Positions 13,950 to 37,510 of a DNA stretch of 64,000 nucleotides are shown in pieces. How positions within the stretch are numbered: the first letter of the stretch is position 1; the number at the start of each line of letters is the position of its first letter. The notes under the pieces were generated by a model. It ran no database searches and had not been told where the DNA came from. It saw only the letters and a program-made list of their open reading frames with translations. The position numbers were made by a program, and so were the translations under genes. Source of the stretch: Candidatus Latescibacterota bacterium (GTDB taxonomy: Bacteria > Latescibacterota > UBA2968); assembly GCA_965207885.1 (NCBI GenBank), contig OZ242311.1, forward strand, positions 4,288,001-4,352,000, read 5' to 3'.

Positions 13950-14773
13950 ACGGCCTTCGCTTTCCACAGTTTCGCTTTCCATATCTGCGAATGCGATATA
14001 TTTGTGCCGATGAGCTTTGTAGAGACAAAATCTGCGCCAGCGACTGTCGCTTTCGTCAGGTTGGCATTGGAAAGATCGGCTTCGGAAAAATCGGCTTCGG
14101 AAAGGTTGGCACCGGAGAGATCGGCATAGGTGAGAGTCGCTCTCTTGAACTTGGCACGGGAGAGGTTAGCACCAGTCAGATTGGCATTGGAAAGATCCGC
14201 ATTGGAAAGATCGGCATTGGAGAGATTAGCTTTGGAAAGGATAGCACTAGAAAGGTTGGCACCGGTCAAGACAGCTTCAGAAAGGTCGGCTTCAAGGAGT
14301 TCGGCACAGACGAGAATTGCACCAGTCAGATTGGCTTTGGTAAGGACAGCATCACAAAGGGCGGCACCGCTAAGGTTGGCACCGGTTAAGTTAGCACTGG
14401 AGAGGATAGAAAATGAAAGGTTGGCACCGGAGAGATCGGACTTAAACAAAAAAGCCTCGGTTAAATCGGTCTCCCAAAGCCGCGCTTGATAGAGTTTGGT
14501 GTTAGAGAGTTTGGCCCGTCTAAGATTGGCGTTGTAAAGATACACACCGGTCAAGTCGGCACTATTTGAATTGGATTTGGAGGGGGCGGCCCAGGTACTC
14601 AGATCAATTTCAGAGAGAGGCATTTTCCTATTGCTATCGAGTTTGCCTGCTTCCTGAAATTTTTTGTAGAGGTTCACCCCCGCAAGATCTGGCACAAAAT
14701 TTTCACGCTCGCGCATCGCGTTCCATGATTCGGCTCCTTCGAGAAGCCATTCAATGTGTTGTTTATCCGCCAT
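13946..14773 (-). CDS. Pentapeptide repeat protein
   Basis: Long A(N/D)L(S/T)x repeat tract; MADKQHIEWLLEG..WN start after AGGAG. Confidence 0.9.
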   Translation of the reverse strand: MADKQHIEWLLEGAESWNAMRERENFVPDLAGVNLYKKFQEAGKLDSNRKMPLSEIDLSTWAAPSKSNSNSADLTGVYLYNANLRRAKLSNTKLYQARLWETDLTEAFLFKSDLSGANLSFSILSSANLTGANLSGAALCDAVLTKANLTGAILVCAELLEADLSEAVLTGANLSSAILSKANLSNADLSNADLSNANLTGANLSRAKFKRATLTYADLSGANLSEADFSEADLSNANLTKATVAGADFVSTKLIGTNISHSQIWKAKLWKAKAV

Positions 14774-15100
14774 ATCCCTTTCTCCTCTACTCAGAATTTC
14801 ATTTATCTTCCTGCTGGTATAAGACTGTTGAGGTATGCTCGGCATACCTTTCTGCTTAATCGTCTCAGACCAATATAGCCAACATCATATCATCGTGCAA
14901 GGTCATCGCTTTTTTTCGATGAATTTGGGGGCACTATCCGGCGCAAGGCCAAACGAACCCAAACGCCCTGATCTGACCTGCGGGTTTTCATCCTGATCAT
15001 CCTTTCATCACTGGATAGAACCACTCCAGTGCAGGCTCTGCCCATCCAGATGAACTGATCTGAAAATCGACCAGTTGTACACCGCTTCCGATAATGTTTT

Positions 15101-16996
15101 TCACCCCAACACCCGCACATCCCCTTGCCGAATGGTTATGCCTTGTGTATCAAAATAATTTAACAGCGGCACGGCAAATTTGCGCGTGGTGCCGATCAGG
15201 CTGCGAAAAGTCGATACATCGATCTCTCCATTTTCTTTCAGATAATCGACCAGTTGCCGCGCCACCTCTTCCATCACCTCCGGATGAAAGAGCAACGTAT
15301 CGTCCAGGCGCACCAGATTTCCCATAGCCTGCATCGCCGACACCACATCTCGCACAGAGCTGGCATTGACCTGAATCGCATCGGGCAGCGTCTTCAAGTC
15401 CTCAGGCGTCGTCCCCCCATCTTTTAATACCCGCACAATCGCATCGCGAATTTCCTCTTGTTGGGGCGTCAACGCAATTTTGTAATCGCGCAACCCGATC
15501 AGCGCGTTATCGCTTCTTAAGATACCTTCGCGAACGAGATATTCAACACCCTGCGCAAACAAATCGTCAGACGGCGTACCCTTCACCAATGCGCGAAGCT
15601 CCTCGCGTCGCGCACCTGGTCGGAGGGGATGCGCCTCGTGAAAAACCTGCACCGCATCGCCAATTCCGTCCAGCAATTCCCGCCAGCACATCGCGTGGAC
15701 ATACATCGCTTTACCCGCCTGCACATAAGAAATCACATCGCCCGAATTGGCGAGCGCGGTTAACTGACCCTCAATCCCACTCGCAGACACCGCCATCTCA
15801 GACGCGAGTTGGAGCGCAGTTCGCGGTTGCAATCGCGCGGCCTTTAAGCGCGTCAACAAAACCTGTGTGGGATCATCCTGCTCCAATTCTCGCAGTGCAT
15901 CATTGACATCGTCCCGAAACCGCCGATGCTTCACGGGTTGCGGATCCAGCACCACGCCACCGCCCAGCGTTTGCACTGGTGAATACCGCCGGATCACAAA
16001 CCGATCTCCCCGTGCGGCAACGCCCGGTTCCTCCAGGCGCAACTGCACCAGTTGCGATTCACCCGGCAACAAAGTCTCACCTTCGAGCAACACCACGCGA
16101 GCCAAAACCTCTCGCGGTCCCATAAGCAGATGTACGCGCGTGCGATTTGTCACATGCGCGGGTGCATCGGGTAGCATGTGCAAGCGCGCATCGATCATAT
16201 ACGTCGTCTCAAAATACCCCGGTTGTGCCAGAAGATCACCCCGAGACACTTCATCTACTTCGACCCCGCTTATATTAATAGCCGCGCGCGCGCCCACCTG
16301 TGCCACATCCACATCCCGCCCATGCGTTTGCACGCCGCGCACTCGAACACCTTTGCCCGCTGGCAACAGCGACAATTCGTCTCGCACGCGCACATCCCCT
16401 GAAATCACAGTACCCGTCACCACAGTTCCAAATCCCTGCACGGAAAAAGTGCGATCAACGGGCAAGCGAAAAATACCCTGGTCTGGCCGTACCTCAACCC
16501 TTGCAACCTCCGCCTCAACCGCCGCGCGCAACGCATCGATCCCCTCACCCGTGATCGACGATACGGGCACAATCGGTGCATCCTCCAAAAATGTATCTGC
16601 AAACACCTCCCGCAATTCCTCTTCCACCAGCTCCAGCCACTCTTCTTCTACCAGATCAACTTTAGTCAACACCACAATACCGCGGGGTACGCCCAAAAGA
16701 TTCAAAATACCCAGATGCTCGCGCGTCTGCGGCATCACCCCATCATCGGCAGCCACCACAAAAAGTGCCAGATCAACCGTACACACCCCCGTCACCATAT
16801 TCTTGACAAACCGCTCGTGCCCGGGCACATCGATAATGGTCACATTATCTTTCCAATACGCAAAACCAATATCAATGGTCACGCCGCGATCGCGCTCCTC
16901 GGGCAAAGTATCGGTCTCAATACCCGTCAATGCCTTAACCAGTGCCGTCTTGCCGTGATCAATATGCCCGGCCGTTCCAATAATCACATGCGCCAT
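15101..16996 (-). CDS. selB: Selenocysteine-specific translation elongation factor
   Basis: GTAGHIDHGKT, DVPGHE, TKVD; C-terminal winged helices with TRKFAVPLL. Confidence 0.96.
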   Translation of the reverse strand: MAHVIIGTAGHIDHGKTALVKALTGIETDTLPEERDRGVTIDIGFAYWKDNVTIIDVPGHERFVKNMVTGVCTVDLALFVVAADDGVMPQTREHLGILNLLGVPRGIVVLTKVDLVEEEWLELVEEELREVFADTFLEDAPIVPVSSITGEGIDALRAAVEAEVARVEVRPDQGIFRLPVDRTFSVQGFGTVVTGTVISGDVRVRDELSLLPAGKGVRVRGVQTHGRDVDVAQVGARAAINISGVEVDEVSRGDLLAQPGYFETTYMIDARLHMLPDAPAHVTNRTRVHLLMGPREVLARVVLLEGETLLPGESQLVQLRLEEPGVAARGDRFVIRRYSPVQTLGGGVVLDPQPVKHRRFRDDVNDALRELEQDDPTQVLLTRLKAARLQPRTALQLASEMAVSASGIEGQLTALANSGDVISYVQAGKAMYVHAMCWRELLDGIGDAVQVFHEAHPLRPGARREELRALVKGTPSDDLFAQGVEYLVREGILRSDNALIGLRDYKIALTPQQEEIRDAIVRVLKDGGTTPEDLKTLPDAIQVNASSVRDVVSAMQAMGNLVRLDDTLLFHPEVMEEVARQLVDYLKENGEIDVSTFRSLIGTTRKFAVPLLNYFDTQGITIRQGDVRVLG

Positions 16997-18402
16997 CAAC
17001 CCCGCGCTCCTTTTTGTACCGCATCGCCCACAATACTCACCTCGTCATCTCTGATCGTGCGCAAATCCAGAAATAACTGGTCACCGCGCACATAGCAAAT
17101 AACGGGCGGATCATAGCGGCGCAACGCATTGGAAAGGGACAAAATATCGCCACCGGAAATTGCGACTGCAACACTCGGAATATTTTCCAAAGGCAGCGCA
17201 CCACTGCCAGTTTGTGCCTGAGAATCGACCAGTTCACATGAAAAACCCTCAAGTTCACCGATCATCCGCAACAACCGCCGACCACGCCGCTCAAGCATTC
17301 CCACAGGCTCCGTCAACATGCGAAGTGTGGGATGTTCGCGCGCCAATGCCTCTGGATTTAAAAACAACTTCAACGTCGCCTCCAGCGCGGCATACGTCAG
17401 CTTTCCACAACGCAACGCGCGCATCAAGGGATTTTTGCGAATCTGTTCTACGACATTTTGTTTCCCCACAATAATCCCACACTGCGGCCCACCGAGAACC
17501 TTGTCACCACTAAACATCACCACATCTGCCCCGGCGGAAATACTATCAGATACCAGCGGCTCGTAGGGCAATCCGTAATCCCGCAAATTGACCAGCACAC
17601 CGCCGCCCAAATCGTGCGCCACAGGCACGCCGCGTTGTCGTCCCAACACCACCATATCTTCCAGTGCTACTTCGGCGGTAAATCCCATCACCCTGTAATT
17701 GCTCGGATGCACCGCCAGCATCACCCCCGTATTTTCCGTCAAAGCGTTTTCATAATCGCTCAAATGAGTGCGATTGGTCGTCCCCACCTCGACGAGTTGC
17801 GCCCCACTGCGCGACATAATATCGGGAATGCGGAACGATCCCCCAATTTCGACCAGTTGCCCGCGCGACACAATCGCCTCTTTGCCACCGGCCAGTGTAT
17901 TTAACGTCAACAAAACAGCCGCTGCATTGTTATTTGCAATCGCAGCGGCTTCGGCACCGGTCAACTCACACAGCAATTTTTCCACAAGCGTCGTACGCGA
18001 CCCGCGTTGTCCAGTCTCCAGATCCAACTCCAGATTGCTATACGAACCAGCAATATCGGCAATATGTTTCACCGCAACATCGGACAGCGGCGCGCGTCCC
18101 AAATTGGTATGCAGAATAACCCCAGTCGCATTCACAACACACCTGAGATTTGGCGCAAACCGTTCTGCTAACTCCCTCTCCACATCCCCAACAATCCATT
18201 CGGTCAACGCCTCACGCGACGCACCCACCGCCTTGCCATCGCGCATCATCCCCCGCACGCGATCTATCGCCCGTCGAATCATATCGGTCAAAACAGACGT
18301 CCCACAGCGCTTTGACAGCGTCTGAATCGCCTGTTCATTGAGCACCCCATCTACACCAGGGATAATTGAATAATCTACATTCTTTTTTAAATCACCATTC
18401 AT
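16996..18402 (-). CDS. selA: L-seryl-tRNA(Sec) selenium transferase
   Basis: NATGVILHTNLGRAP, NNNAAA, EIGGSFR, FSGDKVLGGPQ. Confidence 0.96.
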   Translation of the reverse strand: MNGDLKKNVDYSIIPGVDGVLNEQAIQTLSKRCGTSVLTDMIRRAIDRVRGMMRDGKAVGASREALTEWIVGDVERELAERFAPNLRCVVNATGVILHTNLGRAPLSDVAVKHIADIAGSYSNLELDLETGQRGSRTTLVEKLLCELTGAEAAAIANNNAAAVLLTLNTLAGGKEAIVSRGQLVEIGGSFRIPDIMSRSGAQLVEVGTTNRTHLSDYENALTENTGVMLAVHPSNYRVMGFTAEVALEDMVVLGRQRGVPVAHDLGGGVLVNLRDYGLPYEPLVSDSISAGADVVMFSGDKVLGGPQCGIIVGKQNVVEQIRKNPLMRALRCGKLTYAALEATLKLFLNPEALAREHPTLRMLTEPVGMLERRGRRLLRMIGELEGFSCELVDSQAQTGSGALPLENIPSVAVAISGGDILSLSNALRRYDPPVICYVRGDQLFLDLRTIRDDEVSIVGDAVQKGARG

Positions 18403-24780: not shown

Positions 24781-25110
24781 GTTTGCGTGCCGAACACGAC
24801 GCTTATTTACCGAAAGCATCGACAAACAGCAGAAAATCGCCAATCCCTATTGTGCCATCCCCATCCAGATCAAACCGCGCATCATATCCCGCATCGCCAC
24901 GACTTAATCCGAACCGGGTTGCAAACAGCAGAAAATCGCTAATGCCAACTGTCCCATCGCCATCAAAATCAGCCACTGGCGACTCCTCCGGAACACCAGT
25001 GACCACAGCATCGATGCCCACATCTGCCACTGTTAGAGGACCTCCGCCTTTCTCCTGAACTGGAAACTCTACGCAACCAATCGTCTTTCGCTCTCCGCGA
25101 GAATTTCCTA

Positions 25111-26047
25111 GGTAGTGTCTGAAAAGTCGTAAAGTATGTATTTTAGTTGCAGCATACGCCCTAAACCAAGGAGTATGATATGCAACGGAGATATGAACTG
25201 CGCGACGAGGCTTGGCATCTGATCCAAGACCTGTTCCCACCGCCGAAGAAGATGGGTCGTCCCCGTCGGGATGATCGTACATTATTCAACGGGATCTTCT
25301 GGATATTGTGTTCAGGTGCAGCTTGGCGCGACCTGCCAGAACGATATGGTCCTTGGCAGACAGCCTTTGACCGATTCTGCAAATGGAAACAGGATGGCAC
25401 CTTTGATCGCATTGTAGAAAAGCTACATCTCAAATTGGGTGAAGATGGTCTTTTAGATTATGCGACCTGGATGATGGATGCAACCCATATTCGAGCCACA
25501 CAAGCCGCGGCAGGAGCGAAAAAAAAAGGGCAAAAAGGGTGAAGAAGAGCCCCCAGATCACGCTTTAGGACGCTCTCGTGGCGGTTTGACCACGAAAATC
25601 CATCTTCTTTGCGATGCAGTCGGGCATCCTTTAGCAGTGGATCTTCTCCCTGGTAACCAGTCAGAATCCACACAGGCTGAAAGGCTACTGTCAAAGGTAT
25701 GCATACCCACCAAACGAGGGCGTCCAAGAAACCGACCCAAGTATCTGGTAGCTGATAAATCTTATGATGTCTCACGCATCAGAGTCTATCTACGCAAACG
25801 GGGTATCAAGGCTGCTATCCCAAACAAGGCGATTCCCAAAGGCAGAAAACGGCGTAAGAGAGGACCACGGCCTAAGTGTGATAAAAGATTATATGCCAAA
25901 CGCAATATCGTGGAGCGTCTCTTTGGTTGGCTTAAACACTGCCGACGGATTGTGACCCGATTTGAAAAAAAGGCGACTCATTTTCTCACTATGGTCAAGC
26001 TGGCCTGTATCAGACAACTCTTCAAAGCTTACTTTTCAGACACTACC
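25111..26047 (+). mobile_element. IS5-family insertion sequence (IS427-like), 937 bp
   Basis: Perfect 17-bp TIRs GGTAGTGTCTGAAAAGT / ACTTTTCAGACACTACC; TA target duplication; the empty site is visible in the paralog near 30770. Confidence 0.95.
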
Positions 26048-26050
26048 TAA
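25180..26050 (+). CDS. IS5-family DDE transposase in two frames joined at an A9 run (25519-25527)
   Basis: OrfA: GRPRRDDR, WRDLPERYGPW, MDATHIRA; OrfB: GRSRGGLTTKIH, ADKSYD, RNIVERLFGWLK. Confidence 0.9.
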
Positions 26051-28423
26051 GATATCGGTTGTTATATCTGGATAATACCCCTCTGCATTGCCAATCAGAC
26101 CACTGGATTCTCCCGGAGCAACAACCCCATTGGGCAGATAATCCACATCGATCCGCTCAACCTTTATCCCATCCCGATCAGGCATACCCAACTCGCCATC
26201 GGTGATATTCCCTTCCCAGGTGAAATTGACTGGCTCATCGTCCTGCACGAGTTCCACAGTCCTCTCAGATCTCTCCATCACAAAAGCATTATTCGCAATT
26301 ACACAATCCTTAGGTGCTATACCGTTGGGATACAGTCTGTGATTACGCCCTACAACCATCGCCGGACTACATCCCATAAATGTATTAAACGCGATCAGCG
26401 CGCGCTCCACCTGCACATAGTGCTTATCCATCGTCCCATCCCTTATACACACACCAAACGCATTGAGCGAGCGGAACAGATTGTTGACAACAACCTGATC
26501 CGTTCCCTGCAAGCACACACCGCCAGCACGTAGTTCACCCTCACCAAAAAAGAAATTCTCAGACACCACATTGCCATGCCCACTCCGAAGCGTCAGCGCC
26601 CCCCGGCAATCGCGAAACGTATTTCTACGGAGAATATTGCCATTGGACTTCACAGAAATGATCTCCGACTCACCGTTACAACGCTCGAAGAGATTGTACT
26701 CAATCACTGTCTCACAATCGCCCGGCTCAGGATCTTTAGGAGCACCCTCTGTAATCAGCTGAATCGTCTCGTACCCATTGTCTCCCCTGCCCTCTGGAAT
26801 ATCGACGAAGTGGTTATGATGGATGTGATGCCTCTCACCCTGATTGAAAACCTCAAACTGAATCAACTGGCAACCACTCATCTCAACGAGATTATTGGTC
26901 TTATTCTCAAATCGGCAACGCTCAATCTCCCGGCTCAGTGCACTGACGCGTATCCACTTGCCAACCTGAACATCGGTCATCACGCAGCGACTTATGCGAC
27001 AACCTCGACCGCGAATTTTTATGCTGCCCTTCTCCTCAAAGCGAAGACCTACGAGATTAATGTAATCTCCCTTTATTGATATGGGACCCTGTATAACGGC
27101 TTTCCCGATGTTTTTTGCCTGAATTGTGATGGGATGAGTAGTGGTACCCTTTGCTACCAACTCGCACACATCGCCATCATATACTCCGTCATCTAAGGTG
27201 ATTGTGTCGCCCGCCCGCGCGTCAGATACCCGGTGTTTAAGATCGGATAATGTCATAATTCCCGTGCGAAAGGTCAACGGTGGCACCGACGCATGCCCTA
27301 TGAGTAATACCTCGACCGTATTTTCTTTTGATGATCCCAATGTCAAGGTTGTCTGTGCTCTACCTACGGTATTGGTAGTGTCAGTGACGGTACTGAGTGA
27401 GCCACCACCTGAGGTGACGGTAAAAGACACCGGCACACCAGCAAATGTTTTATCCCTCTGATCCTGCACTTCCACAACAAATGGGGTCGCCAAAGCCGCA
27501 CCAGGCGTGCCATCCTGCACTTGCCCAGAGACTATGACCAACCTCGTCGGCGTGCGGGAATCGAAGCTCACGCTGACTCCGCGACTCTGAAGGGCGGGAA
27601 TGTGTGTATTGAGGGAAGGATAGCTCAGAGGGTTGCCTATCAAATAGACCTCGTCGCCATTTCCCAATCCCATGTTTACTACCAATGGCGAGATGTCCAG
27701 AATGTTGTTTCTATGAAGCTCCAGCTTTGTCAGACCAGTTAAGTTAGAAAGCGGAGACGCATCCGAAATACTGTTGCCTCGTAGCTTTAGATGGATCAGA
27801 TGGATTAAGCCCGAAAGGTGCGAAAGATCTGACATACTGTTCCGGCTAATATCCAGAAATGTCAGACGGGTTAAGTTAGAAAGCGGAGACGCATCCGAGA
27901 TTGAGTTGCGCTCAAGATCCAGAGATGTCAGACGGGTTAAGTTGGAAAGCGGAGATACGTTCGAGATCGAGTTGCTCTGGATATCCAGCAATGTCAAGCG
28001 AGTTAAGTTAGAAAGTGGAGATACATCCGAAATACTGTTGCCTGCAAGTTTTAGCTTTGTCAGGCTGGTTAAGCCCGACAGTGGCGAGAGGTTGAAGATG
28101 TCGTTGCTGTTGATATAATGACCACCCTCTCCCCACTCGCCACCGAGATAAAGATGGGTCAATCCGGTTGCATACTCAAGCCCGGTCAGGTTGTGGATAT
28201 TCGCATCCTGCGCGTCAATGCGCGTCAATGTCGCCATTTCCGCCCGGGTAATCGTCGCACCGCTTGCCTTGTCCAACGAGTCCTCAATGACAGCCCTCAG
28301 GTTCACATCGGGGATGGTTACGGTCTGGTTCTGCGCGCTGCTTTCGCCGCAGACGGCAAAGAAAATTAAAAGTATGGTAAAGACAGAGGATATATAACGG
28401 CAAAAAATCATAAATTTCCTCGC

Positions 28424-29236
28424 TCACTTTCTGTGGATGTCGTAGTACCGGAACCCGGCGGTGAGCCAGTAGCGATTCGCAGAGCGCAAGACCCTCGGTA
28501 AGCTGATCAACGAACCACCACGCAACACATGCCTATTGCAGTCTCCAAATATCCAGGCAGAACCATCTGTAGGTGCCCCCTCGTAATTCTCATTCCAACA
28601 ATCTTGCACCCACTCCCACACATTGCCATGCATATCGTAAACACCCCACGCATTCGCCTCGAACGATCCCACTGGCGCTGTCTGCTTATCGTCCCACTGA
28701 CTACCGCATCCATCACAATTGGCGCGGTTGACACCGATGCTGTCTCCCCAGCTATACGCTGTCTCTGTCCCTGCACGTGCCACATACTCCCACTCCGCTT
28801 CACTCAATAAACGATATGTTTTACCCGTCCTCTCAGACAACCAACGCACATAAGACTGCGCATCGTCCCAACTCACATTCACTACCGGACGATTTCCGCG
28901 GCCCCAGCTATCACTCGGAATATCCGGAATATAGTTTCCACAACCTCCTGCATCCATACAGGCATACCATTCGTCAAATGTCACCTCATATACACCCACC
29001 GCAAACTGGTAATCTATATGCACCCTATGCAGCGGCCTTTCATCAGAATGACCCCTCTCACGCGTGGGTGACCCCATCCTGAACGATCCCGATGGCACCA
29101 CCACCATCTTTGGGCATTCATCACAGTCTTGAAAAGTCTCTCCAGGTGAAGGTGCACTATTCCCGGTGTTCTGTTGTGACCATAGAGGAAGGCTCAGAAG
29201 AATTAATACACCTGTACAAATACAGTGACGATCCAT
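28424..29236 (-). CDS. Secreted FGE-sulfatase/SUMF1 (CLec-fold) domain protein, C-terminus truncated
   Basis: FQDCDECPKMVVVP.GSFRMGS, RLLSEAEWEYVARAG, DMHGNVWEW, VLRGGS; terminal GFRVAR replaced by HRK*; lacks catalytic FGE cysteines. Confidence 0.88.
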   Translation of the reverse strand: MDRHCICTGVLILLSLPLWSQQNTGNSAPSPGETFQDCDECPKMVVVPSGSFRMGSPTRERGHSDERPLHRVHIDYQFAVGVYEVTFDEWYACMDAGGCGNYIPDIPSDSWGRGNRPVVNVSWDDAQSYVRWLSERTGKTYRLLSEAEWEYVARAGTETAYSWGDSIGVNRANCDGCGSQWDDKQTAPVGSFEANAWGVYDMHGNVWEWVQDCWNENYEGAPTDGSAWIFGDCNRHVLRGGSLISLPRVLRSANRYWLTAGFRYYDIHRK

Positions 29237-29311
29237 CTTGGCTCTCCTTTCATCAATTCCCCCTGCTATAGAAGATTCTTGGCCTCTAAAAAATGTCAAG
29301 TATCACCTCTG

Positions 29312-30376
29312 CTATCTGCCCTGTATATAGGTCACTTCATATATGATGGTCCCTTCCTCATCGCGGCTGACCCATTTTCCGTGCCGCTTGCCATCCGCAA
29401 ATGGGCCTTCGGATGTGCCTCCATCATAAGAAGGAAAGCTCCAGTGACCGTGCCGCTTGCCGTTCACATAAGGGCCTTTAGCTATGTGAGTTCCCCACTC
29501 AATCTCAACCCATTGTCCGTGCTTTTTTCCGTTCACATAGGAGCCGCCCCCTGTGCGACCCTCCGGGCTACGTTCGACCCATTGTCCGTGCTTCTCGCCA
29601 TCCACGTACGGGCCTTCGAATACGATATGCCTGAACCTCCGCATTTGCTGGACCCAATGCCCGTGCCGCTTGCCGTTCACGTACGGGCCTTTCTCGTCAT
29701 TGAACTTATAAAAGTACCAATAATAGCGATAGATCCATTCTCCGTGTTTCTTACCATCCACATAAAGGCCTTGCCTTACGATCTCGTCGAGGGGCATTTC
29801 GATCCAATGTCCGTACCGTTTGCCATCCCGCAAGTATCCCATTTCTTCACCTTTGTCGGTATAGAGAGTGCCGTGAAAAATAGCAACGGTCTTGAGTGTT
29901 CCCCTTCCCTGGGCAAAACCATCGGAACACTCACCCGACCAGGCCATGATCTCACCCTCTCTGAGATTATCGTTCCAGACATAGCATTTGGGGTGATTGA
30001 TCAACTCCATCCAGCAACCCGCACCTGACGGTTTTCCTTCACACGTTCCATCAGCTTTGATAATTTCGTTGTCGAACACGTCCTCGGAATCTGCTGGCGT
30101 TTCGTCACCGTCAGCACTATGCTGCGCCTTTATATATCCCTCAACCTCACGCATCAGTTCCAGAGCTTCTTTTGTCAGCACTGCGCCGCGTTCTTTTTTT
30201 AACGCTTCGAGCTTTTTCAGCACTCTCAATGTACCCCCGTAGTCGCCTTTGCCGTACAGTTCTTTTGCCAGATTCAGATAATCGCCCCATTGGGCACGTG
30301 GCGGAAATCCGGCTGTTGCAACTGTGAAGAATCCCAACATTACTGCAATAAAAAAGTTCCTGACTACTTCACGCAT
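29312..30376 (-). CDS. Secreted MORN/YwqK-like repeat protein with TPR-like and Cys-rich modules
   Basis: Signal peptide; C.GKP.G..CWMEL.NHP.CYVWN module; about 7 GPYV(D/N)GK(R/K)HG.W repeats. Confidence 0.8.
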   Translation of the reverse strand: MREVVRNFFIAVMLGFFTVATAGFPPRAQWGDYLNLAKELYGKGDYGGTLRVLKKLEALKKERGAVLTKEALELMREVEGYIKAQHSADGDETPADSEDVFDNEIIKADGTCEGKPSGAGCWMELINHPKCYVWNDNLREGEIMAWSGECSDGFAQGRGTLKTVAIFHGTLYTDKGEEMGYLRDGKRYGHWIEMPLDEIVRQGLYVDGKKHGEWIYRYYWYFYKFNDEKGPYVNGKRHGHWVQQMRRFRHIVFEGPYVDGEKHGQWVERSPEGRTGGGSYVNGKKHGQWVEIEWGTHIAKGPYVNGKRHGHWSFPSYDGGTSEGPFADGKRHGKWVSRDEEGTIIYEVTYIQGR

Positions 30377-30463
30377 GGTGTGTCTCCTTAAATCGTGCCT
30401 TATTTAACATGCGATTACTTTAAGAGGCCCCGTGCTGAGTAGATTGCGTGCCGAACACGACGC

Positions 30464-33171
30464 TTATTTACCGAAAGCATCGACAAACAGCAGAAAATCG
30501 CCAATCCCTATTGTGCCATCCCCATCCAGATCAAACCGCGCATCATATCTCGCATCGCCACGACTTAATCCGAACCGGGTTGCAAACAGCAAAAAATCGC
30601 TAATGCCAACTGTCCCATCGCCATCAAAATCGGCCGTTGGAGACGCCTCCGGAACACCAGTGACCACAGCATCGATGCCCACATCTGACACTGTTAGAGG
30701 ACCTCCGCCTTTCTCCTGAACTGGAAACTCTACGCAACCAATCGTCTTTCGCTCTCCGCGAGAATTTCCTAAAATATCGGTTGTTATATCTGGATAATGT
30801 CCCTCTGCATTGCCAATCAAACCACTGGACTCTGCCGCACAACAACCCCATTGGGCAGATAATCCACATCCACCTTAGCAATTCTTATCCCATCCCGATC
30901 AGGCATACCCAAATCCCCATCCGTCACATTCCCCTCCCACATCCAATCCACTGGCTCATCGTCCTGCACCAGCCGCACAGTCCTATCGGATCCCACAAAA
31001 GCATTATTCGCAACCACGCAATCCTCAGGTGCTATACCGTTGGGATGCAGTGGGTGATTTAGCCCCACATCCATCGCCGGACTACATCCCACAAACGTAT
31101 TAAACGCAATCAGCGCGCGCTCCACCCGCACATAGAGATCATCCATCGTCCCATCCCTCACACCCACGCCAGACGCATTGAGCGAGTGGAACAGATTGTT
31201 GACAACAACCTGATCTGTCCCTTGCAAGCGCACACCGCCAGCCCGGCGTTCGCCCTCGCCAAAAAAGAAATTCTCAGACACCACATTGCCATGCCCACTC
31301 CGAAGCGTCAGCGCCCCTCGGCAATCGCGAAACGTATTCCTGCGGAGCGTATTGCCATTGGACTTCACAGAGATAATCTCCGACTCCCCACTACAGCGCT
31401 CAAAAAGGTTGTATTCGATTAGGGTTCCAGAGTGGCCCGGTTCCGGGTTCCAAGGATTTCCCTTTATAACAAGTTGAAGCGTTTCATAGCCATTGCCCAA
31501 CTTGCCCTCTGGAATATCGACGAAGTGGTTGTGGTGGATGTGGTGGTGTTCTCCCTTGTCTAGCACGACGATTCGCATCAATTGGTGGTCAATGTACCCC
31601 TCCGCAACATGGGGAATGTCGAACCTACCGCCCTCATGATCGGTGTTGTTGGTCTTGTTCTCGAATCGGCAGTAATCAATTTCGATTTGCTGACTTTCCG
31701 GCAATACGTCCATCCAAATGCCTACCTGAACGTCTGTCATTACACAGCGACTGATGCGACAACCTCGACCGCGAATTTTTATACTGCCCTTCTCCTCAAA
31801 GCGAAGACCTACGAGATTAATGTAATCTCCCTTTATTGATATGGGACCCTGGATAACGGCTTTCCCGATGTTCTTCGCCTGAATTGTGATGGGATGGGCC
31901 GCGCTCCCCTTTGCTACCAACTCGCACACATCGCCGTCATATACTCCGTCATCTAAGGTGATTGTGTCGCCAGGACGCGCGTCAGATACCCGGTTTTCAA
32001 GATCGGATAATGTCATAATTCTCGTGCGAAAGATCAACGGTGGCACCGACGCATGCCCTGGGATTAACACCTCGACCGTATTTTCTTTTGATGATCCCAA
32101 TGTCAAGGTTGTCTGTGCCCTACCTTTGGTATTGGTAGTGCCGGTGGTGGTACTGAGTGAGCCACCACCTGAGGTGACGGTAAAAGACACCGGCACACCA
32201 GCAAATGCTTTATTTCTCTGATCCCGCACTTCCACAACGTATGGGGCAGACAAAGTCGATCCGGGCGTGCCCTCCTGCCATTGCCCGGAGGCTATGACCA
32301 ACTTCGTCGGCGTGCGGGAATCGAATCTTACGCGGACCCCGCGGCCCTGAAGGACCGGAATGTGCGTATTGAGGGAAGGATAGCTCAGAGGGTTTTCTTT
32401 CAAAGAGACCTCGTCGCCATTTCCCAATCCCGTGTTTACTACCAATGGCGAGATGTCCAGGATGGCGTTTCTAAGAAGACTCAGCAGTGTCAGATCAGTT
32501 AAGTTAGAAAGCGGAGATATATCCGAAATACTATTGTCCCACAGCTTCAGTTGCTTTAGACGGATTAAGCCCGCGAGGTGCGAGAGATCTGATATACTGT
32601 TCTGGCTAATATCCAGAAACGTAAGTAGAGTTAAGTTGGAAAGCGGAGACGCATCCGAGATTGAGTTGCGCTCAAGATCCAGAAAAGTTAGACGGGTTAA
32701 GTTGGAAAGCGGAGATACGTTCGAGATTGAATTGTGCTGGATATCCAGAAATGTCAAGCGAGTTAAGTTAGAAAGCGGAGACACATCCGAAATACTGTTG
32801 CCTGCAAGTCTTAGCGTTTTCAGGCTGGTTAAGCCCGATAGGGGCGAGAGGTTGGAGATGTCGTTGCTGTTGATATAACGACCACCTTCTCCCCACTCGC
32901 CACCGAGATAAAGATGAGTCAATCCGGTTGCATACTCAAGCCCAGTCAGGTTGTGGATATTCGCATCCTGCGCGTCAATGCGCGTCAATGTCGCCATTTC
33001 CGCCCGGGTAATCGTCGTACCGCTTGCCTTGTCTAACGAGTCCTCAATGACAGCCCTCAGGTTCACGTCGGGGATAGTTACGGCCTGGTTCTGCGCGCTA
33101 CTTTTGCCGCAGACGGCAAAGAAAATTAAAAGTATGGTAAAGACAGAAGATATATAACGGCAAAAAATCAT
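30464..33171 (-). pseudogene. LRR + Ig-like + PL6-like beta-helix + dockerin-like protein, copy 2, frameshifted near 30835
   Basis: Paralog of 24803-28411; one base shorter at about 30833-30840, splitting it into ORFs 30817-33171 and 30464-30820. Confidence 0.82.
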
Positions 33172-33183
33172 AAATTTCCTCGC

Positions 33184-33530
33184 TCACTTTCTGTGGATCT
33201 CGCATTTGACCTCTGCTCGCTCACATAGCTTTGTCCATTGATACAGCGCGGTCCCATAACTCATGCGCTGATCTTTGTATTTTCCCGTCCTGAAGAGTGG
33301 TCCCGCGGTTAAATCTTCATTGCGAAGATACGCGCGCAATAGTTTCAGGCTTTCAAACTCAAAGGGCAACGGGACCTCGCGCTCGTACTCTCCTTTGCCT
33401 CTGAACCGCATACCCTCCTGCCCAGCACTCAGGACAATATCCTCAACGTAAATGCCCAGATACGAATCCCAGTTTCGGCCAGCAGAGTGAACACCAGGCA
33501 TCTCAGCACTGTTGATCTATATCAAACCAC
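33184..33530 (-). pseudogene. Tyrosine recombinase (XerD-like) catalytic-domain relic
   Basis: CLVFTLLAETGIR (catalytic R box) in one frame; GIYVEDI, RGKGEYEREVP, GPLF in the next; stops at EIHRK*, where HxLRH is expected. Confidence 0.75.
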
Positions 33531-33578
33531 ATCTTCGATGCTCACATTATAGTTGCATAAATACACCTGATTCGCTCA

Positions 33579-34310
33579 TTACCGACACATTTCCTTATTT
33601 ACCTTTTTCCTTTCTACCTCTTGATCTTGATGATATCTAATGGACAAGCAAACTTCAAGAATACGATTATACACTAACCAGGTGCCTTCTCTTTTTCCGT
33701 TTATATATTCACGCCTTGATTTGTACCCTTCACTGAAATGAAAAACCGATTTGCCGTGCGCCTTGCCATCTACAAAGGAGATTTCCCTTACGGACCCATC
33801 TCTCTCACGGAGGACCCATTTGCCGTGCGGCTTGCCGTTCACATAGAAGCGTTCCTCTACGGCTCCATCCAAGTGACGCCAGATCCATTGCCCATGCTTT
33901 TTGCCATCCACATAGGGACCTTCCTCTACGGTCCATTTCGAGGGACGATGGACCCATTGTCCATGAAAATTGCCTTTCTGGAGGTGCCCAGTGTCCGTCC
34001 CTAAAATTTTAAGAGAGTCTCCGTCAGTAACAGCCCAGGTAAGCGTTCCTTCCCCATGAGCCAAATTTCCTGAACACTTGCCAGACCAGGTCACGGTCTC
34101 GTCTTTCTGAAGGTAAGGATTCCAGATATAGCATTCAGACTGGTTGGTCAACGCCATCCAACAACTGGAGCCTACAGGCTTTCCGCCACACGTTTTCCCG
34201 GCACTGATCTCCGGCGGCAGTTGAGCGGATGCCGGACCTGTCAACACAAGCGCCGAAATGAAAAAGCCAATAAGCATTTTTCGCCTGGCGTGTCGCTTTA
34301 TTTGATCCAT
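33579..34310 (-). CDS. Secreted MORN/YwqK-like repeat protein with Cys-rich module
   Basis: Signal peptide; CGGKPVGSSCWMALTNQSECYIWN; GPYVDGKKHGQW-type repeats. Confidence 0.8.
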   Translation of the reverse strand: MDQIKRHARRKMLIGFFISALVLTGPASAQLPPEISAGKTCGGKPVGSSCWMALTNQSECYIWNPYLQKDETVTWSGKCSGNLAHGEGTLTWAVTDGDSLKILGTDTGHLQKGNFHGQWVHRPSKWTVEEGPYVDGKKHGQWIWRHLDGAVEERFYVNGKPHGKWVLRERDGSVREISFVDGKAHGKSVFHFSEGYKSRREYINGKREGTWLVYNRILEVCLSIRYHQDQEVERKKVNKEMCR

Positions 34311-34314
34311 CCTT

Positions 34315-34980
34315 TTAAAATCGCAGCACAGCCTTTACAAATGCTTGCCGACGGGGGTAAGAAATCCCAAAAGACAATGGGGAGATGCGCCGTTTCTCGG
34401 AAAGTGATTGTATGGGAAGCATGTTTATTCTGTCTCTGATTTTACAGTAAAATTCTTGTTCTTTTCCGTTGTCAACTCGCACATGTAAGGTTTCCCCAGA
34501 TTTGTCCTTCATTACAAAATGGGTATTCTCTCGCAAGAGAACGCGTTCGGGGAATACTCCCTTTGATACCAGGGTAATCCCTGCTGATATTGTACTTTTT
34601 GCATAAGGTGATTCCAAGAACTCCCACCCATCTTGTTCATCTAAGACTGCACATAGTGCATACACTCCAAAAGTTATCCCCGCAAGACCCAGATCGTGAA
34701 AAAGTTTTCTCCACGCACCCGTTTCTCTGTGCATCCCTACTTTTACAGTATCATCCATCCCGAATTGTGCAACTAATAGGTTTGTCTTCTGGGCATATAC
34801 ACGAATTGTTTTTTCGTCACACTTGACAATTGCGGGAAACCAGTCTCCCTTATCTGAAACTCGATAAGCTGTTATTCCACCTGAAAATGTACAAATATCT
34901 GCTGACACCTCATGGGCTACCGCAACTGTGAAAAATCCCAATAAGATTGTAAAAAGAATGCCTTTGATTACGCTCTGCAT
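34315..34980 (-). CDS. Hypothetical secreted protein
   Basis: Signal peptide MQSVIKGILFTILLGFFTVAVA; ends in VLRF. Confidence 0.65.
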   Translation of the reverse strand: MQSVIKGILFTILLGFFTVAVAHEVSADICTFSGGITAYRVSDKGDWFPAIVKCDEKTIRVYAQKTNLLVAQFGMDDTVKVGMHRETGAWRKLFHDLGLAGITFGVYALCAVLDEQDGWEFLESPYAKSTISAGITLVSKGVFPERVLLRENTHFVMKDKSGETLHVRVDNGKEQEFYCKIRDRINMLPIQSLSEKRRISPLSFGISYPRRQAFVKAVLRF

Positions 34981-35085
34981 AGGTGTACCTTCCTTTCGTT
35001 GGTGATTCTGTTAGGTGTAGGTGAATAAAAAAACACCACCTCTTTTCCTTCCCACACAAGAGGTAAAGAGATAAAGAGTCAGGAG

Positions 35086-35490
35086 TTAAAGATCCCGGGC
35101 AACTCGAAAACCGATGAAGTCGTCCCGGTTCTCGGTGGGAAGCCTGAAGCGAGCCGCAGAACGCAAGAAACTCGGTAAGCTAAACCACGAACCACCACGC
35201 AACACGCGCATTCTGCAGTTCCCAAACAGCCAGGCAGATCCATCTGTCGGTGCCCTTCGTAATTCTCGTTCCAACAATCTTGTACCCATTCCTCTACATT
35301 CCCGTGCATGTCGTGAAGTTCCCATCTGTTGGCACTGAAGGAATCCACCGGAGATGAGTGTCGCTTATCCCACTGACTGCCGCAACCCGAGCAATTGGCA
35401 CGGTTAACACCAATGTCGTTCCCCCAGCTATACGTTGTTGTTGAGCCAGCACGCGCAACACAACGCCAGTAATCCAGTGACTTTAGTCAT
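35086..35490 (-). pseudogene. FGE/CLec-domain pseudogene with intact VR-like 3' end
   Basis: MTKVTGLLALC start joined by deletion to VARAG...YSWGNDIGVNRANC; frameshift near 35255; ends RGGSW...IGFRVARDL*. Confidence 0.8.
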
Positions 35491-35635
35491 CACCGCGACC
35501 GCCTAAGACCGTTTACATAGGTCTCTGTGCGTGTGCGTCCGGACGAGTCACGCCTAACATAATCGCCGTGCCTCTTGCCGTCCACATAAGGGCCTTTCTT
35601 TACTGTTCTGCCGTAAGTCTCGACCCAATGGCCCG
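35490..35635 (-). pseudogene. Orphan 3' fragment of a MORN-like repeat gene
   Basis: GHWVETYGRTVKKGPYVDGKRHGDY...TETYVNG with no proper 5' end. Confidence 0.65.
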
Positions 35636-35682
35636 GACAGCTTGCCCTGTCCACAAACGCGATCGGGAAACTTCTGCAAAGA

Positions 35683-36732
35683 CTATTGCTTCTCGCCATT
35701 CACATAAGTTGATGTTTTTGTTCTAACTATTTTGCCGCCTGCCATTACACGCTCGACCCATTGCCCGTGCCGCTTGTCATCCACATATGAGCCTTTCTCT
35801 TCTTCATATCCATCACTCCATCCCCCCCACGCGCCCCTGGATCTCAAGACCCATTCGCCGTGTCGCTTGTCGTTCACATAGAGACCTCCCCAATCTCCAC
35901 TCGCCTCCGGGTGACTATAGACCCACTGCCCGTGCCGCTTCCCTTCCTTATAGAGGCCTTTCTCTGTGGTCCTACTATCCTCCCACCGTACAACCCACTG
36001 CCCGTGCCGCTTGCCTTCCACATAGGGGCCTTCAAATATGCCCCCATTCCCCCGTTCAACCCACTGCCCATGCTTCTTGCCTTCTACATAGGGGCCTTCC
36101 TCTGTCATGAACGTACCCCACCGTACAACCCACTGCCCGTGCCGCTTGCCTTTCTGGAGATGCCCTGTTGATGTAATTGAGCCTCCGTCAGTAAAAGCCC
36201 CGGTAAGCGTTCCCTCCCCATGAGCCAAATTTCCTGAACACTTGCCAGACCAGGTTACGGTCTGCTCCGTATAGTAGTAGTCATTCCAGACATAGCATTC
36301 AGGATGGTTGGTCAATTCCATCCAACAACTGGAGCCAAAAGGCTTTCCAGCACACATTTCCTCAGCACTGATCTCAGTCCCTTCAACTTCGAGCAATAAC
36401 ACCAGTGCCTCCCTATAGAACTGTCCCTCTCTCCCTGTTGCTGACAGATACTTGTTTACCGACTCATGCGCGATCTTGATTGAATCTGCTGACCAGGCCA
36501 CACGCGCATATTTGAAGTGAAACTCGTCCGGCAATGTGAAGTTGTGCTCTTTTTGTAGCGCGATGATCTTTTCCATCACATTGAAGGCACCTGCATAGTC
36601 TTCTTTTGCATGTAACTGGTCTGCCTGAATCAGATGTTTATCTACCATGATCTCTGGCGGTAGTTGGGCAGATGCAACCGTGAAAAATCCCAGCGAAAAT
36701 AGAACGAAAATACTTCTGATGACGCTCTGCAT
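35683..36732 (-). CDS. Secreted MORN/YwqK-like repeat protein with TPR-like and Cys-rich modules
   Basis: MQSVIRSIFVLFSLGFFTVASA signal after AAGGAG; helical domain; CAGKPFGSSCWMELTNHPECYVWN; about 6 GPYVEGKRHGQW repeats. Confidence 0.82.
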   Translation of the reverse strand: MQSVIRSIFVLFSLGFFTVASAQLPPEIMVDKHLIQADQLHAKEDYAGAFNVMEKIIALQKEHNFTLPDEFHFKYARVAWSADSIKIAHESVNKYLSATGREGQFYREALVLLLEVEGTEISAEEMCAGKPFGSSCWMELTNHPECYVWNDYYYTEQTVTWSGKCSGNLAHGEGTLTGAFTDGGSITSTGHLQKGKRHGQWVVRWGTFMTEEGPYVEGKKHGQWVERGNGGIFEGPYVEGKRHGQWVVRWEDSRTTEKGLYKEGKRHGQWVYSHPEASGDWGGLYVNDKRHGEWVLRSRGAWGGWSDGYEEEKGSYVDDKRHGQWVERVMAGGKIVRTKTSTYVNGEKQ

Positions 36733-36760
36733 GATGTCTCTCCTTTCATTATTTGACCTG

Positions 36761-37390
36761 CTATCGCTGTGTGCAGCCCCACACGCGCACACGGCATGAT
36801 TTTCCACCTCTTCGTCGGCATTCGCTTAGTGCCCTGTTTTGCGCTGCCACGCTACTGTTATCCTTTCCCCAGCCATAGATGGTGCTGCCCGGCTCTTGAT
36901 CCGCCGCGAAGGCACCGCATTGGTCGCTGAATCTCATGACCACATGGCAATTGTTGCCGCACTCGGCAAGTGCCCGCTGTTCCGCCTGTTGAGCAGTCGG
37001 ATAGTTGATGGCCCAGCCCCACGACGGCCCTTGATTCGAGTCAATGGCGAGTGCTCCCCACAGCGTAGTATTCGCTGTTTGATCGCCTTGAGTCAGTGCT
37101 GGCGCATCGAAGTGGCTGCTCATACCGGACATTTCGATAACGGTAAATGTGTTCGTAAACGCCATGAACTCGTCCGCGGCCTGGTAAGCGTCCATGGAAT
37201 CGTAGGAACCGCCAGTTTGGGCTGTAACCTGGCGCAGATCCTGTGCCGCTTGCGCGTTCGGAGTCATGCTATACCCCAACAGCAAGCTATTTTTGCCATG
37301 TCCACCCTCTTGAGAAAAAGCCTGCGATCCCCAACTGATCGCAGCCACAACCATAGCGGCCTTTACCATTGTTCTTGCAATACGGTTCAT
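36761..37390 (-). CDS. Secreted DUF4189 domain protein
   Basis: WGALAI...WGWAINYPT..QAEQRALAEC...C.VV.RF..QCGAFA...RALSEC; signal peptide; AGGAG RBS. Confidence 0.75.
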   Translation of the reverse strand: MNRIARTMVKAAMVVAAISWGSQAFSQEGGHGKNSLLLGYSMTPNAQAAQDLRQVTAQTGGSYDSMDAYQAADEFMAFTNTFTVIEMSGMSSHFDAPALTQGDQTANTTLWGALAIDSNQGPSWGWAINYPTAQQAEQRALAECGNNCHVVMRFSDQCGAFAADQEPGSTIYGWGKDNSSVAAQNRALSECRRRGGKSCRVRVWGCTQR

Positions 37391-37463
37391 TGTAAGTCTC
37401 CTATATGAAGGATGAGTAGTTGCCCGCAGGGCAGTCGCCTGGGACTCGAATTTGATTTACAAA

Positions 37464-37479
37464 TGCAAAAAGCGTGCCA
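37464..37479 (-). promoter_or_regulatory. Sigma54 (-24/-12) promoter upstream of the secreted-protein array
   Basis: Minus strand TGGCACGCTTTTTGCA matches TGGCACG-N4-TTGCW exactly; 73 bp upstream of ATG 37390. Confidence 0.88.
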
Positions 37480-37510
37480 ATGTGAGCATTGTGTTCCAGA
37501 CATATACTCG

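What the first reader, a model, noticed from the sequence alone, without database searches (positions are those of the whole stretch)
29312..36732. MORN-like proteins built as conserved-core / hypervariable-loop arrays
Seen: three paralogs plus a fragment repeat a core G(P/L)YV(D/E/N)GK(R/K)HG(Q/H/E)W. It is conserved at DNA level (CCCACTGCCCGTGCCGCTT recurs at about 35922, 35994, 36130). Cores are separated by unique 9-18 aa loops of very different chemistry (YRYYWYFYKFNDEK, QQMRRFRHIVFE, VRWGTFMTEE, YSHPEASGDWG, LRSRGAWGGWSDGYEEEK). No loop is shared between paralogs. All three have the same Cys-rich cap (C.GKP.G..CWM.L.N...CY.WN...WSG.CS). Inference: a modular binder scaffold, conceptually like VLRs or TALEs, whose loops are exchanged by recombination between cores.
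Basis: partly seen in the sequence, partly recalled or inferred. Interest (0 to 1): 0.7.

Follow-up and report, generated by a model that had tools for sequence, protein, structure and literature searches.

The report
Secreted MORN-repeat proteins, diverged paralogs
These are three ordinary, exported MORN-repeat proteins of a sponge-associated bacterium whose "variable loops" are simply the less constrained half of each repeat and are kept in related strains, so there is no special loop-swapping diversity machine.

Summary
Three minus-strand genes (29312-30376, 33579-34310, 35683-36732) and a 69-aa fragment carry tandem units with the core YV(D/E/N)GK(R/K)HGxW. An exact 19-mer occurs three times. 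All 13 loops in the window are unique, and all three proteins share a 4-Cys cap.

The proteins are true MORN-repeat proteins. The units have a 23-aa period. The family profile hits solved MORN1 at E=5e-20. The AlphaFold2 model (pLDDT 92) matches TgMORN1, RSPH1 and junctophilin. The "loop" is the rest of strand B plus the distal turn.

The loops are not hypervariable. In the closest relative of gene 1 they are 87% identical (cores 83%), colinear, and the odd aromatic loop is unchanged. Over 20 close pairs, loops are 72% identical against 85% elsewhere.

No donor cassettes and no nearby reverse transcriptase were found. The arrays do evolve by duplication or deletion of whole units and by recombination between paralogs: gene 2 is a mosaic.

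The genes lie in a decaying island of exported repeat proteins. Their N-terminal module also heads ankyrin and FGE-domain proteins. The likely role is a surface or host-matrix binder. This is a new member of a known kind, of modest interest.

The parts
29312..30376 (-). MORN gene 1 (P0001, 354 aa): signal peptide, helical N-domain, 4-Cys cap, 6 core-bearing units with periods 27, 25, 23, 23, 23
   Evidence: close relatives P0124-P0127 at 78-87% identity
33579..34310 (-). MORN gene 2 (P0002, 243 aa): signal peptide joined directly to the cap (no helical N-domain), 4 units of period 23; a mosaic of two paralog lineages
   Evidence: Pfam MORN 22.1 bits against a cut-off of 22.5
35683..36732 (-). 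MORN gene 3 (P0003, 349 aa from the ATG at 36732; a GTG at 36807 would add 25 aa and overlap the DUF4189 gene)
   Evidence: AlphaFold2 model pLDDT 92.4; Foldseek and PDB profile hits to MORN proteins
36667..36732 (-). Gene 3 signal peptide (aa 1-22, ...LGFFTVASA|QLPPE). The same leader, 65-72% identical at DNA level, heads gene 1 and the 221-aa ORF at 34315-34980
   Evidence: repeat family D8; invariant GFFTVASAQLPPE; cleavage site judged by eye, no predictor was run
36373..36666 (-). Gene 3 helical N-domain (about aa 23-120, five helices). The same module heads ankyrin and FGE-domain proteins
36235..36354 (-). Gene 3 Cys-rich cap (aa 127-166; C127, C136, C146, C165), short strands ahead of the first hairpin; 84% identical in DNA to the cap of gene 2
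   Evidence: (D4)
35686..36234 (-). Gene 3 MORN beta-hairpin array (aa 167-349), including the three exact 19-mers
35490..35699 (-). Out-of-frame 69-aa remnant with one clear core; its end (...TYVNGLRRSR) resembles the C-terminus of P0004/P0005 (...TYVNGRLQSR)
   Evidence: similarity of the ends judged by eye
28424..29299 (-). FGE-sulfatase-domain protein directly downstream of gene 1; a broken copy lies at 35086-35460 downstream of gene 3
26036..28411 (-). LRR + Big_1 + chondroitinase-B-like lyase, copy A (copy B is 30817-33171; 85.7% nt identity over 2.4 kb)
30817..33171 (-). LRR + Big_1 + chondroitinase-B-like lyase, copy B

Best explanation
The three genes are diverged paralogs of one large family of exported MORN-repeat proteins in a sponge-associated Latescibacterota-type genome. 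Each protein has a Sec-type signal peptide, a roughly 95-aa helical N-domain (missing in gene 2), a cap with four conserved cysteines (probably two disulfides), and an array of 23-residue beta-hairpin units. The hairpins stack into a long antiparallel sheet. The 'loop' is the rest of strand B, the distal turn and the start of the next strand A. There only a skeleton (V, R, G, V, EGP) is constrained, while alternate positions and the turn length vary. The arrays grow and shrink by duplication or deletion of whole units. They are occasionally reshuffled in blocks by homologous recombination between paralogs in a gene island, after which each unit drifts by point substitution. The likely function (inferred, not shown) is a periplasmic or surface binding scaffold for a host or matrix ligand. 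That would make it one of the eukaryote-like repeat proteins of sponge symbionts, alongside the neighbouring LRR-lyase, ankyrin and FGE-domain proteins.
For: Fold and family: the profile of 83 members hits solved MORN1 chains at E=5e-20, and also RSPH1 and junctophilin. The AlphaFold2 model has pLDDT 92.4 and pTM 0.77. Foldseek gives TgMORN1 6t6q at E=1.5e-11, with 46 hits at E<=0.001, the top ranks all MORN proteins. The periods are 23, 23, 23 in gene 2, 27, 25, 23, 23, 23 in gene 1, and 22, 24, 24, 31 in gene 3. The 23-residue hairpin definition is taken from passages read in PMC7725318. Unit logo from 311 period-23 units: entropy is under 1.1 bits at positions 4, 7, 8, 10, 11, 13, 17, 22 and over 3.4 bits at 12, 14, 18, 20. 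Loops retained in relatives: (gene 1 versus P0124: N-domain 89%, cap 95%, cores 83%, loops 87%). Whole-unit duplication: 47 loop pairs at 80% identity or more within one protein, and the extra unit in P0044. Recombination. Export: a conserved hydrophobic leader ending ASA|Q. Island context and shared N-module: 4 of 6 tested N-module ORFs from relatives are ankyrin proteins and 2 of 6 are FGE-domain proteins; there is one ankyrin protein in the own genome. Habitat: contigs from a sponge metagenome run (X2) match 330, 340 and 416 nt with 0 differences. 9 of 13 related loci are titled Latescibacteria or Latescibacterota.
Against: None of the three proteins reaches Pfam's MORN or MORN_2 gathering score: 22.1, 14.9 and 14.5 bits against 22.5, and 13.0 against 29.6. 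The canonical GxG and YEGEW signatures are replaced by HGxW and YVxGK. Loops do evolve faster than the rest in gene 3's lineage: P0003 versus P0004 shows loops 73% against 92-95% elsewhere. Pooled over 20 pairs, loops are 71.8% against 84.6-85.8%. In the one close pair with DNA, omega is 0.76 in loops against 0.20-0.30 elsewhere, with wide intervals. So some diversifying selection is not excluded. Export, the disulfides and any ligand are inferred only. No expression data were examined.
Confidence: 0.72

Rival explanations
1. Diversifying (positive) selection acts on the variable face and distal turns. This would be an arms race or ligand-tracking binder family without any dedicated mutagenic mechanism.
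For: Loops diverge 1.9 times faster than other parts over 20 close pairs (28% versus about 15% differences). In P0003 versus P0004 the difference is about 4-fold or more. Omega in loops is 0.76 and in the tail 0.91, against 0.20-0.30 elsewhere, in the L011/L012 pair. High-entropy positions alternate along strand B. Presence is patchy within the genus (5 of 12 congeners).
Against: Gene 1's loops are as conserved as its cores (87% versus 83%). No region has omega significantly above 1 (bootstrap interval for loops 0.14-2.55). Faster change is equally expected from relaxed constraint. Only one close DNA pair was available.
Confidence: 0.2
2. A programmed variation system in the manner of VLRs, TALEs, pilin or vls cassettes, or DGRs. 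Loops would be swapped in from donor copies by recombination at the conserved cores.
For: Cores share DNA identity beyond what the amino acids require: the same codon is used at 174 of 271 identical residues within genes, against 0.38 expected. There are three exact 19-mers. Mosaic genes and a unit-number variant exist. A truncated gene and an out-of-frame fragment lie in the locus.
Against: The own genome has only 8 protein matches, all at this locus except an N-domain on an ankyrin protein and a 74-aa cap-only ORF. DNA of the array matches only the local paralogs, at 72-83% over 114 nt or less. The nearest reverse transcriptase is more than 200 kb away. Loops are colinear and retained in relatives. 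Repeats are only 60-88% identical at DNA level, unlike TALE repeats. Same-codon use is nearly as high between genes (0.55) as within genes (0.64).
Confidence: 0.04
3. A structural or oligomerising envelope protein. Like MORN1, which forms tail-to-tail dimers and meshes, the array would build a periplasmic or surface lattice rather than bind a host ligand.
For: The best structural matches are MORN1 dimers. Passages read in PMC7725318 describe dimerisation and mesh formation, and its title and abstract announce a re-evaluation of the assumed lipid binding of MORN repeats.
Against: Several divergent paralogs and patchy presence among congeners fit accessory functions better than a core envelope part. 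The genes cluster with ankyrin, LRR and FGE-domain exported proteins.
Confidence: 0.15

Closest known systems
Eukaryotic MORN-repeat proteins with solved structures (TbMORN1, TgMORN1, PfMORN1; RSPH1; junctophilins; MORN4)
   Same: 23-residue units, each a beta-hairpin, stacked into an elongated sheet. Profile E=5e-20 and Foldseek E=1.5e-11.
   Different: The window proteins have a signal peptide, a 4-Cys cap and a helical N-domain. The signature is YVxGK(R/K)HGxW instead of YEGEW...GxG. Several units carry insertions of up to 8 residues in the distal turn. The eukaryotic proteins are cytosolic.
Bacterial MORN_2 (PF07661) proteins, e.g. YwqK-type proteins and the MORN2 proteins of Fusobacterium (names recalled; a Fusobacterium paper was seen only in the listing)
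   Same: A bacterial variant repeat with a Y.nGk.hG-like motif. Some relatives carry precomputed PF07661 hits.
   Different: The window proteins score 13 bits or less against a cut-off of 29.6. The N-module and cap are not part of PF07661.
Leptospira LIC20035-family adhesin (NCBIfam NF033566)
   Same: Weak local similarity over about 85-110 residues of the repeat array (E=3.5e-8 and 9.6e-6).
   Different: Scores of 32.7 and 24.7 bits against a cut-off of 250. Not a member.
Eukaryotic-like repeat proteins (ankyrin, LRR, TPR) of sponge symbionts
   Same: Repeat scaffolds in sponge-associated genomes, in multiple copies. The N-module is shared with ankyrin proteins. The abstract of PMC13747020 reports that single such genes alter bacterium-sponge interaction.
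   Different: The only listed paper in my searches that holds both 'MORN repeat' and 'sponge' concerns amoebal giant viruses, not sponge symbionts. No function was tested here.
Lamprey VLRs and TALE repeats
   Same: A capped repeat array with variable positions on one side. As recalled, extracellular LRR arrays, VLRs included, also carry Cys-rich caps.
   Different: No cassette assembly, no near-identical repeats with defined variable residues, and no donors.

Membership tests
MORN repeat (structure-based definition, PMC7725318) | Tandem units of about 23 residues | tested here: met
   Periods are 23, 23, 23 in gene 2, 27, 25, 23, 23, 23 in gene 1 and 22, 24, 24, 31 in gene 3. DNA spacing is mostly 69 nt. 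311 of 963 family intervals are exactly 23 and 471 of 963 are 22-24, found with a loose pattern that also gives false short intervals.
MORN repeat (structure-based definition, PMC7725318) | Each unit is a beta-hairpin and the array forms an elongated antiparallel sheet | tested here: met
   AlphaFold2 model, pLDDT 92.4, strands as mapped. Foldseek top hits are MORN1, RSPH1 and junctophilin. This is a predicted structure, not a solved one.
MORN repeat (structure-based definition, PMC7725318) | Sequence-profile similarity to proven MORN proteins | tested here: met
   The A2 profile against PDB sequences gives 6t69 at E=5.1e-20, with 23 distinct chains at E<=0.01, all MORN-type or SET7/9.
MORN repeat (Pfam PF02493) | Score at or above the gathering threshold (22.5 bits) | tested here: not met
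   22.1, 14.9 and 14.5 bits. Some relatives carry precomputed PF02493 hits.
MORN repeat (structure-based definition, PMC7725318) | [quoted passage not shown] | tested here: not met
   The family consensus is Y V D G K R H G Q W V x R x A D G x V x E G P. The glycines and an aromatic are kept, but the motifs differ. It is a divergent variant.
MORN_2 (PF07661) | Score at or above the gathering threshold (29.6 bits) | tested here: not met
   13.0 bits for gene 1 and none for the others.
LIC20035 adhesin (NF033566) | Score at or above the cut-off (250 bits) | tested here: not met
   32.7 and 24.7 bits.
Cassette-based variation (VLR, pilS or vls type) | Silent donor copies of the variable segments elsewhere in the genome | tested here: not met
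   8 protein matches and 6 DNA matches in the own genome. All repeat-bearing ones lie in this locus, and DNA identity is 72-83% over 114 nt or less.
TALE-like repeats | Near-identical repeats that differ at fixed variable residues | tested here: not met
   Copies are 60-88% identical to the reference over 51 nt, and loop lengths differ.
Diversity-generating retroelement | Reverse transcriptase and a template/variable repeat pair at the locus | tested here: not met
   The five RVT_1 matches lie at 3.12, 4.08 and 5.77 Mb; the locus is at 4.317-4.325 Mb. The self-comparison of 25000-37500 shows no near-identical repeat over the arrays.
Sponge-symbiont eukaryotic-like proteins | A eukaryote-type repeat domain in a sponge-associated bacterium, typically exported | tested here: inconclusive
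   The repeat type is met. Sponge metagenome contigs are identical over 330-416 nt. Export is inferred from the leader sequence only.

The most novel reading that the evidence does not exclude
The conserved leader plus helical N-domain would be a lineage-specific export or anchoring platform. On it, sponge-associated Latescibacterota would display interchangeable binding modules: Cys-capped MORN arrays, ankyrin arrays and FGE-type domains. Recombination among paralogs inside these islands would reshuffle blocks of MORN units, giving each strain its own repertoire for recognising host or matrix ligands.
Probability: 0.2. Interest if true: 0.55.

Novelty: new member of a known kind. Interest (0 to 1): 0.3.

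Why it matters
The finding places a large, mostly unnamed protein family in the MORN superfamily. The family has 667 and 1041 hits at E<=0.001 in two searches, and few of the 120 best-listed hits in each carry a precomputed Pfam domain. It shows that a striking core/loop pattern read from raw sequence can be the normal signature of a beta-hairpin repeat. The useful leads are the disulfide-type cap on an exported MORN array and the N-terminal module shared with ankyrin and FGE-domain proteins. These mark out a set of candidate host-interaction proteins in sponge symbionts. If the loops proved to be under diversifying selection, the family would be a tractable natural binder scaffold.

Tried and rejected
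Retrieving DNA of the close relatives for dN/dS failed. A genome-contig scan with P0124 found no relative. A genus-wide search with P0001 found at most 49% identity outside the own genome, and relatives of P0003 reach at most 63%. Only one close DNA pair (L011/L012, 90% aa identity) was available.

Read laying on four runs gave short metagenome contigs from many strains and paralogs. No clean variant table for cores versus loops could be drawn from them, and parts without cover are not evidence.

The surface mapping of variable positions therefore rests on the secondary-structure string and on the alternation of entropy.

The Atlas search of residues 22-170 scored 0.85 or less. It gives leads only: TPR plus MORN architectures.

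The search of earlier findings returned nothing, by place or by sequence.

Paper searches: 'morn'+'sponge'+'symbiont' (179 papers) gave 15 listed papers whose titles and abstracts concern general sponge ecology; the 'morn' hits may be words such as 'morning', which I did not check. 'MORN repeat'+'Latescibacteria' gave 0 papers. With 'MORN repeat', 'sponge' and 'eukaryotic-like', the only listed paper holding 'MORN repeat' concerns amoebal giant viruses.

A YwqK-type cytoplasmic antitoxin reading was rejected because of the signal peptide and the conserved cysteines.

The 81 loop pairs at 80% identity or more between proteins below 60% overall identity are not evidence of loop transfer. The 40 of them that I looked at are canonical 13-residue loops whose shared skeleton already gives about 11 of 13 matches.

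Full report
**What is there.** Three ORFs lie on the minus strand: 29312-30376 (P0001, 354 aa), 33579-34310 (P0002, 243 aa) and 35683-36807. For the third, the ATG at 36732 gives 349 aa (P0003) and matches the start of its relatives. A 69-aa ORF at 35490-35699 holds one more core and is in another frame.

The repeat finder gives 16 copies of a 51-nt unit and 18 copies of a 28-nt unit, spaced mostly 69 nt apart. Among the 13 inter-core segments in the window, none of the 78 pairs exceeds 50% identity. The four cysteines of the cap are invariant or nearly so in 83 family members.

**What kind of protein.** Pfam alone is not decisive. MORN scores 22.1, 14.9 and 14.5 bits against a cut-off of 22.5, and MORN_2 scores 13 bits. 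NCBIfam gives only a weak local match to the LIC20035 adhesin, 32.7 bits against 250.

Other evidence is clear:
- A profile of 83 family members hits solved MORN1 chains at E=5e-20, followed by RSPH1, FAP266 and junctophilin.
- The AlphaFold2 model of P0003 has mean pLDDT 92.4 and pTM 0.77. It shows five helices (residues 26-117), short cap strands (136-166) and then hairpins to the C-terminus.
- Foldseek returns TgMORN1 (E=1.5e-11), RSPH1, PfMORN1, TbMORN1 and junctophilin-2.
- The structure-based definition is a 23-residue unit: a hairpin of two strands plus a connecting loop (passages of PMC7725318). The periods found here fit it: 23, 23, 23 for gene 2; 27, 25, 23, 23, 23 for gene 1; 22, 24, 24, 31 for gene 3.

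I laid the secondary structure over the sequence.

The canonical family unit comes from 311 units of exactly 23 residues: Y V D G K R H G Q W V x R x A D G x V x E G P. Entropy exceeds 3.4 bits only at positions 12, 14, 18 and 20. So the loop has a conserved skeleton, and the variable residues alternate along a strand.

**Are the loops hypervariable?** The family is large: 667 and 1041 proteins at E<=0.001 in two searches.

Gene 1 has close relatives at 87, 82, 79 and 78% identity. Against the closest (P0124), identity is N-domain 89%, cap 95%, cores 83% (50/60) and loops 87% (61/70). The aromatic loop IYRYYWYFYKFNDEKGP is unchanged, and VQQMRRFRHIVFEGP differs at one residue.

Gene 3 against P0004 gives 93, 95, 92 and 73% for the same four parts, and the loops are colinear.

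I then pooled 20 close pairs. 22 were tried; 2 were dropped because the cap pattern was not found. Identity is 85.8% (N-domain), 84.6% (cap), 84.6% (cores), 71.8% (loops, with 57 gapped positions beside 1941 aligned) and 74.6% (tail).

Loops thus change up to a few-fold faster, but they are inherited, not replaced. In addition, 47 loop pairs at 80% identity or more lie within a single protein, for example four identical loops in P0022. Units therefore arise by whole-unit tandem duplication and then diverge.

**Selection.** Only one close pair with DNA was available (L011/L012, 90% aa identity). This fits relaxed constraint and does not show positive selection.

Between the window's paralogs, the loops are at saturation: aa identity is 20-46% and dS is 1.2 to beyond measure. 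This is what old paralogs would show.

**Recombination.**
- At identical residues in cores, the same codon is used in 174 of 271 cases within genes and 317 of 581 between genes. Window codon usage predicts 0.38. DNA-level similarity is therefore real but only slightly higher within a gene.
- The cap of gene 2 and gene 3 is unusually similar: dS is 0.36 and the same codon is used at 38 of 44 identical residues. Their cores have dS of about 1 and their loops are saturated.
- A sliding identity plot shows blocks. P0005 and P0044 resemble gene 2 from the cap to unit 2 (73-100%) and gene 3 afterwards (72-100%). Gene 2's C-terminal units resemble P0010/11/34.
- Trees agree. In the cap-to-unit-2 region, gene 2 pairs with P0044 (99/96) inside the gene-3 lineage. 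In the C-terminal region it joins P0010/11/34 (100/100). AU tests reject the opposite groupings (p=0.003 and 2e-6), but I chose the groups after seeing the plot.
- P0044 has one extra 24-residue unit.
- One 709-nt contig of run X3 joins 29471 to 29685 at about 96% identity. This is an in-frame loss of 213 nt, exactly the three units between two GPYVNGKRHGHW cores that share 20 identical bases. It is a single metagenome contig, so an assembly join cannot be excluded.

These are the ordinary dynamics of tandem repeats in clustered paralogs. A dedicated mechanism is not supported:
- The own genome holds no donor copies.
- The nearest reverse transcriptase is more than 200 kb away.
- No near-identical repeat pair covers the arrays.

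**Context.** The locus is a rearranged island. A cassette of LRR-Big_1-chondroitinase-B-like lyase, FGE-domain protein and MORN protein is present twice:
- lyase: 26046-28442 against 30768-33202, 85.7% nt identity;
- FGE: 28436-28784 against 35113-35460, 74%;
- MORN: 72-75% over short stretches.

A DDE transposase (25478-26050) sits in an insertion at the end of lyase copy A. A tyrosine-recombinase fragment lies at 33184-33501, and the second FGE copy is broken.

The leader plus helical N-domain of genes 1 and 3 also heads an 803-aa ankyrin protein elsewhere in the genome (56% identity over 117 aa). Of six N-module ORFs from relatives that I tested, four are ankyrin proteins and two are FGE-domain proteins, several of them inside the same islands.

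The family is patchy. 5 of 12 congeners in one draw had a match to P0003, and 7 of 20 had a match to P0001 at E<=1e-30. It is clustered in islands that also contain genes with internal stops.

Related loci are mostly titled Latescibacteria or Latescibacterota (9 of 13), and one protein is named Candidatus Poribacteria. Contigs of a sponge-metagenome run match three pieces of the region without any difference.

**How it most likely works.**

Shown:
- MORN-type fold (predicted, with strong profile support);
- a conserved skeleton with alternating variable positions;
- vertical inheritance of loops;
- unit duplication and inter-paralog recombination.

Inferred:
- Sec export, from the leader;
- two disulfides in the cap, from four invariant cysteines in an exported protein;
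- a binding role for the variable side of the array;
- a link to host or matrix ligands, from the neighbouring exported LRR-lyase, ankyrin and FGE-domain genes and from the sponge habitat.

The abstract of PMC13747020 reports that single eukaryotic-like proteins change bacterium-sponge interaction. MORN proteins were not seen there.

**Verdict.** This is a repeat binder scaffold with recombination in its history, not a loop-exchange diversity system. It is a new member of a known kind, of modest interest.

Noticed in passing
window 25000-26050 and 30661-30771: A DDE transposase ORF (25478-26050) lies in an insertion of about 0.9 kb at the 3' end of lyase copy A. 25000-25110 is 99% identical to 30661-30771, which is the uninterrupted sequence downstream of copy B.
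   Followed up: partly
window 30464-30835: Lyase copy B appears frameshifted near its end. ORF 30464-30820 continues the protein in another frame (it repeats the ...GNAEGxYPDITTDILG... end of copy A) and carries two DxDGDG-type dockerin- or EF-hand-like repeats, with no Pfam hit. Contigs of other runs show 1-nt insertions at 30835 and 30839.
   Followed up: no
G000:C1:2843496 (L004 1486-3351); L035 10399-13146; L037 12931-15384; L039 2164-4800; L014 11833-13797; L041 2881-3954; L009 4804-5598: The leader plus helical N-domain of the MORN proteins also heads long ankyrin-repeat proteins and FGE-sulfatase-domain proteins in this genome and its relatives. It looks like a shared N-terminal module for exported proteins of this lineage.
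   Followed up: partly
window 34315-34980 (-): A 221-aa ORF with the same signal peptide (DNA 65-72% identical to those of genes 1 and 3), but no Pfam or NCBIfam match.
   Followed up: no
window 36761-37390 (-): A DUF4189 protein lies directly upstream of gene 3. Two MORN family members in the database (P0162, P0167) carry DUF4189 (PF13827) in the same chain.
   Followed up: no
window 33184-33501 (-): A 105-aa fragment weakly similar to tyrosine recombinases or integron integrases (E=0.004), lying between lyase copy B and gene 2.
   Followed up: no
L011 and L012 (MORN genes of two Latescibacterota MAGs): dS differs about 7-fold along one gene pair: 0.32 in the N-domain, 0.29 in cores, 0.05-0.06 in the cap and loops. 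This suggests a recent exchange of the middle part between strains.
   Followed up: partly
window 13002-18402: Selenocysteine machinery (SelA at 16996-18402, SelB at 15101-16999) lies next to a pentapeptide-repeat protein (13946-14845) and an FRG-domain protein (13002-13982).
   Followed up: no
G000:C1:1260921-1261049 (L007): A 74-aa open frame that matches only the Cys-rich cap (51% identity over 43 aa), far from the locus.
   Followed up: no
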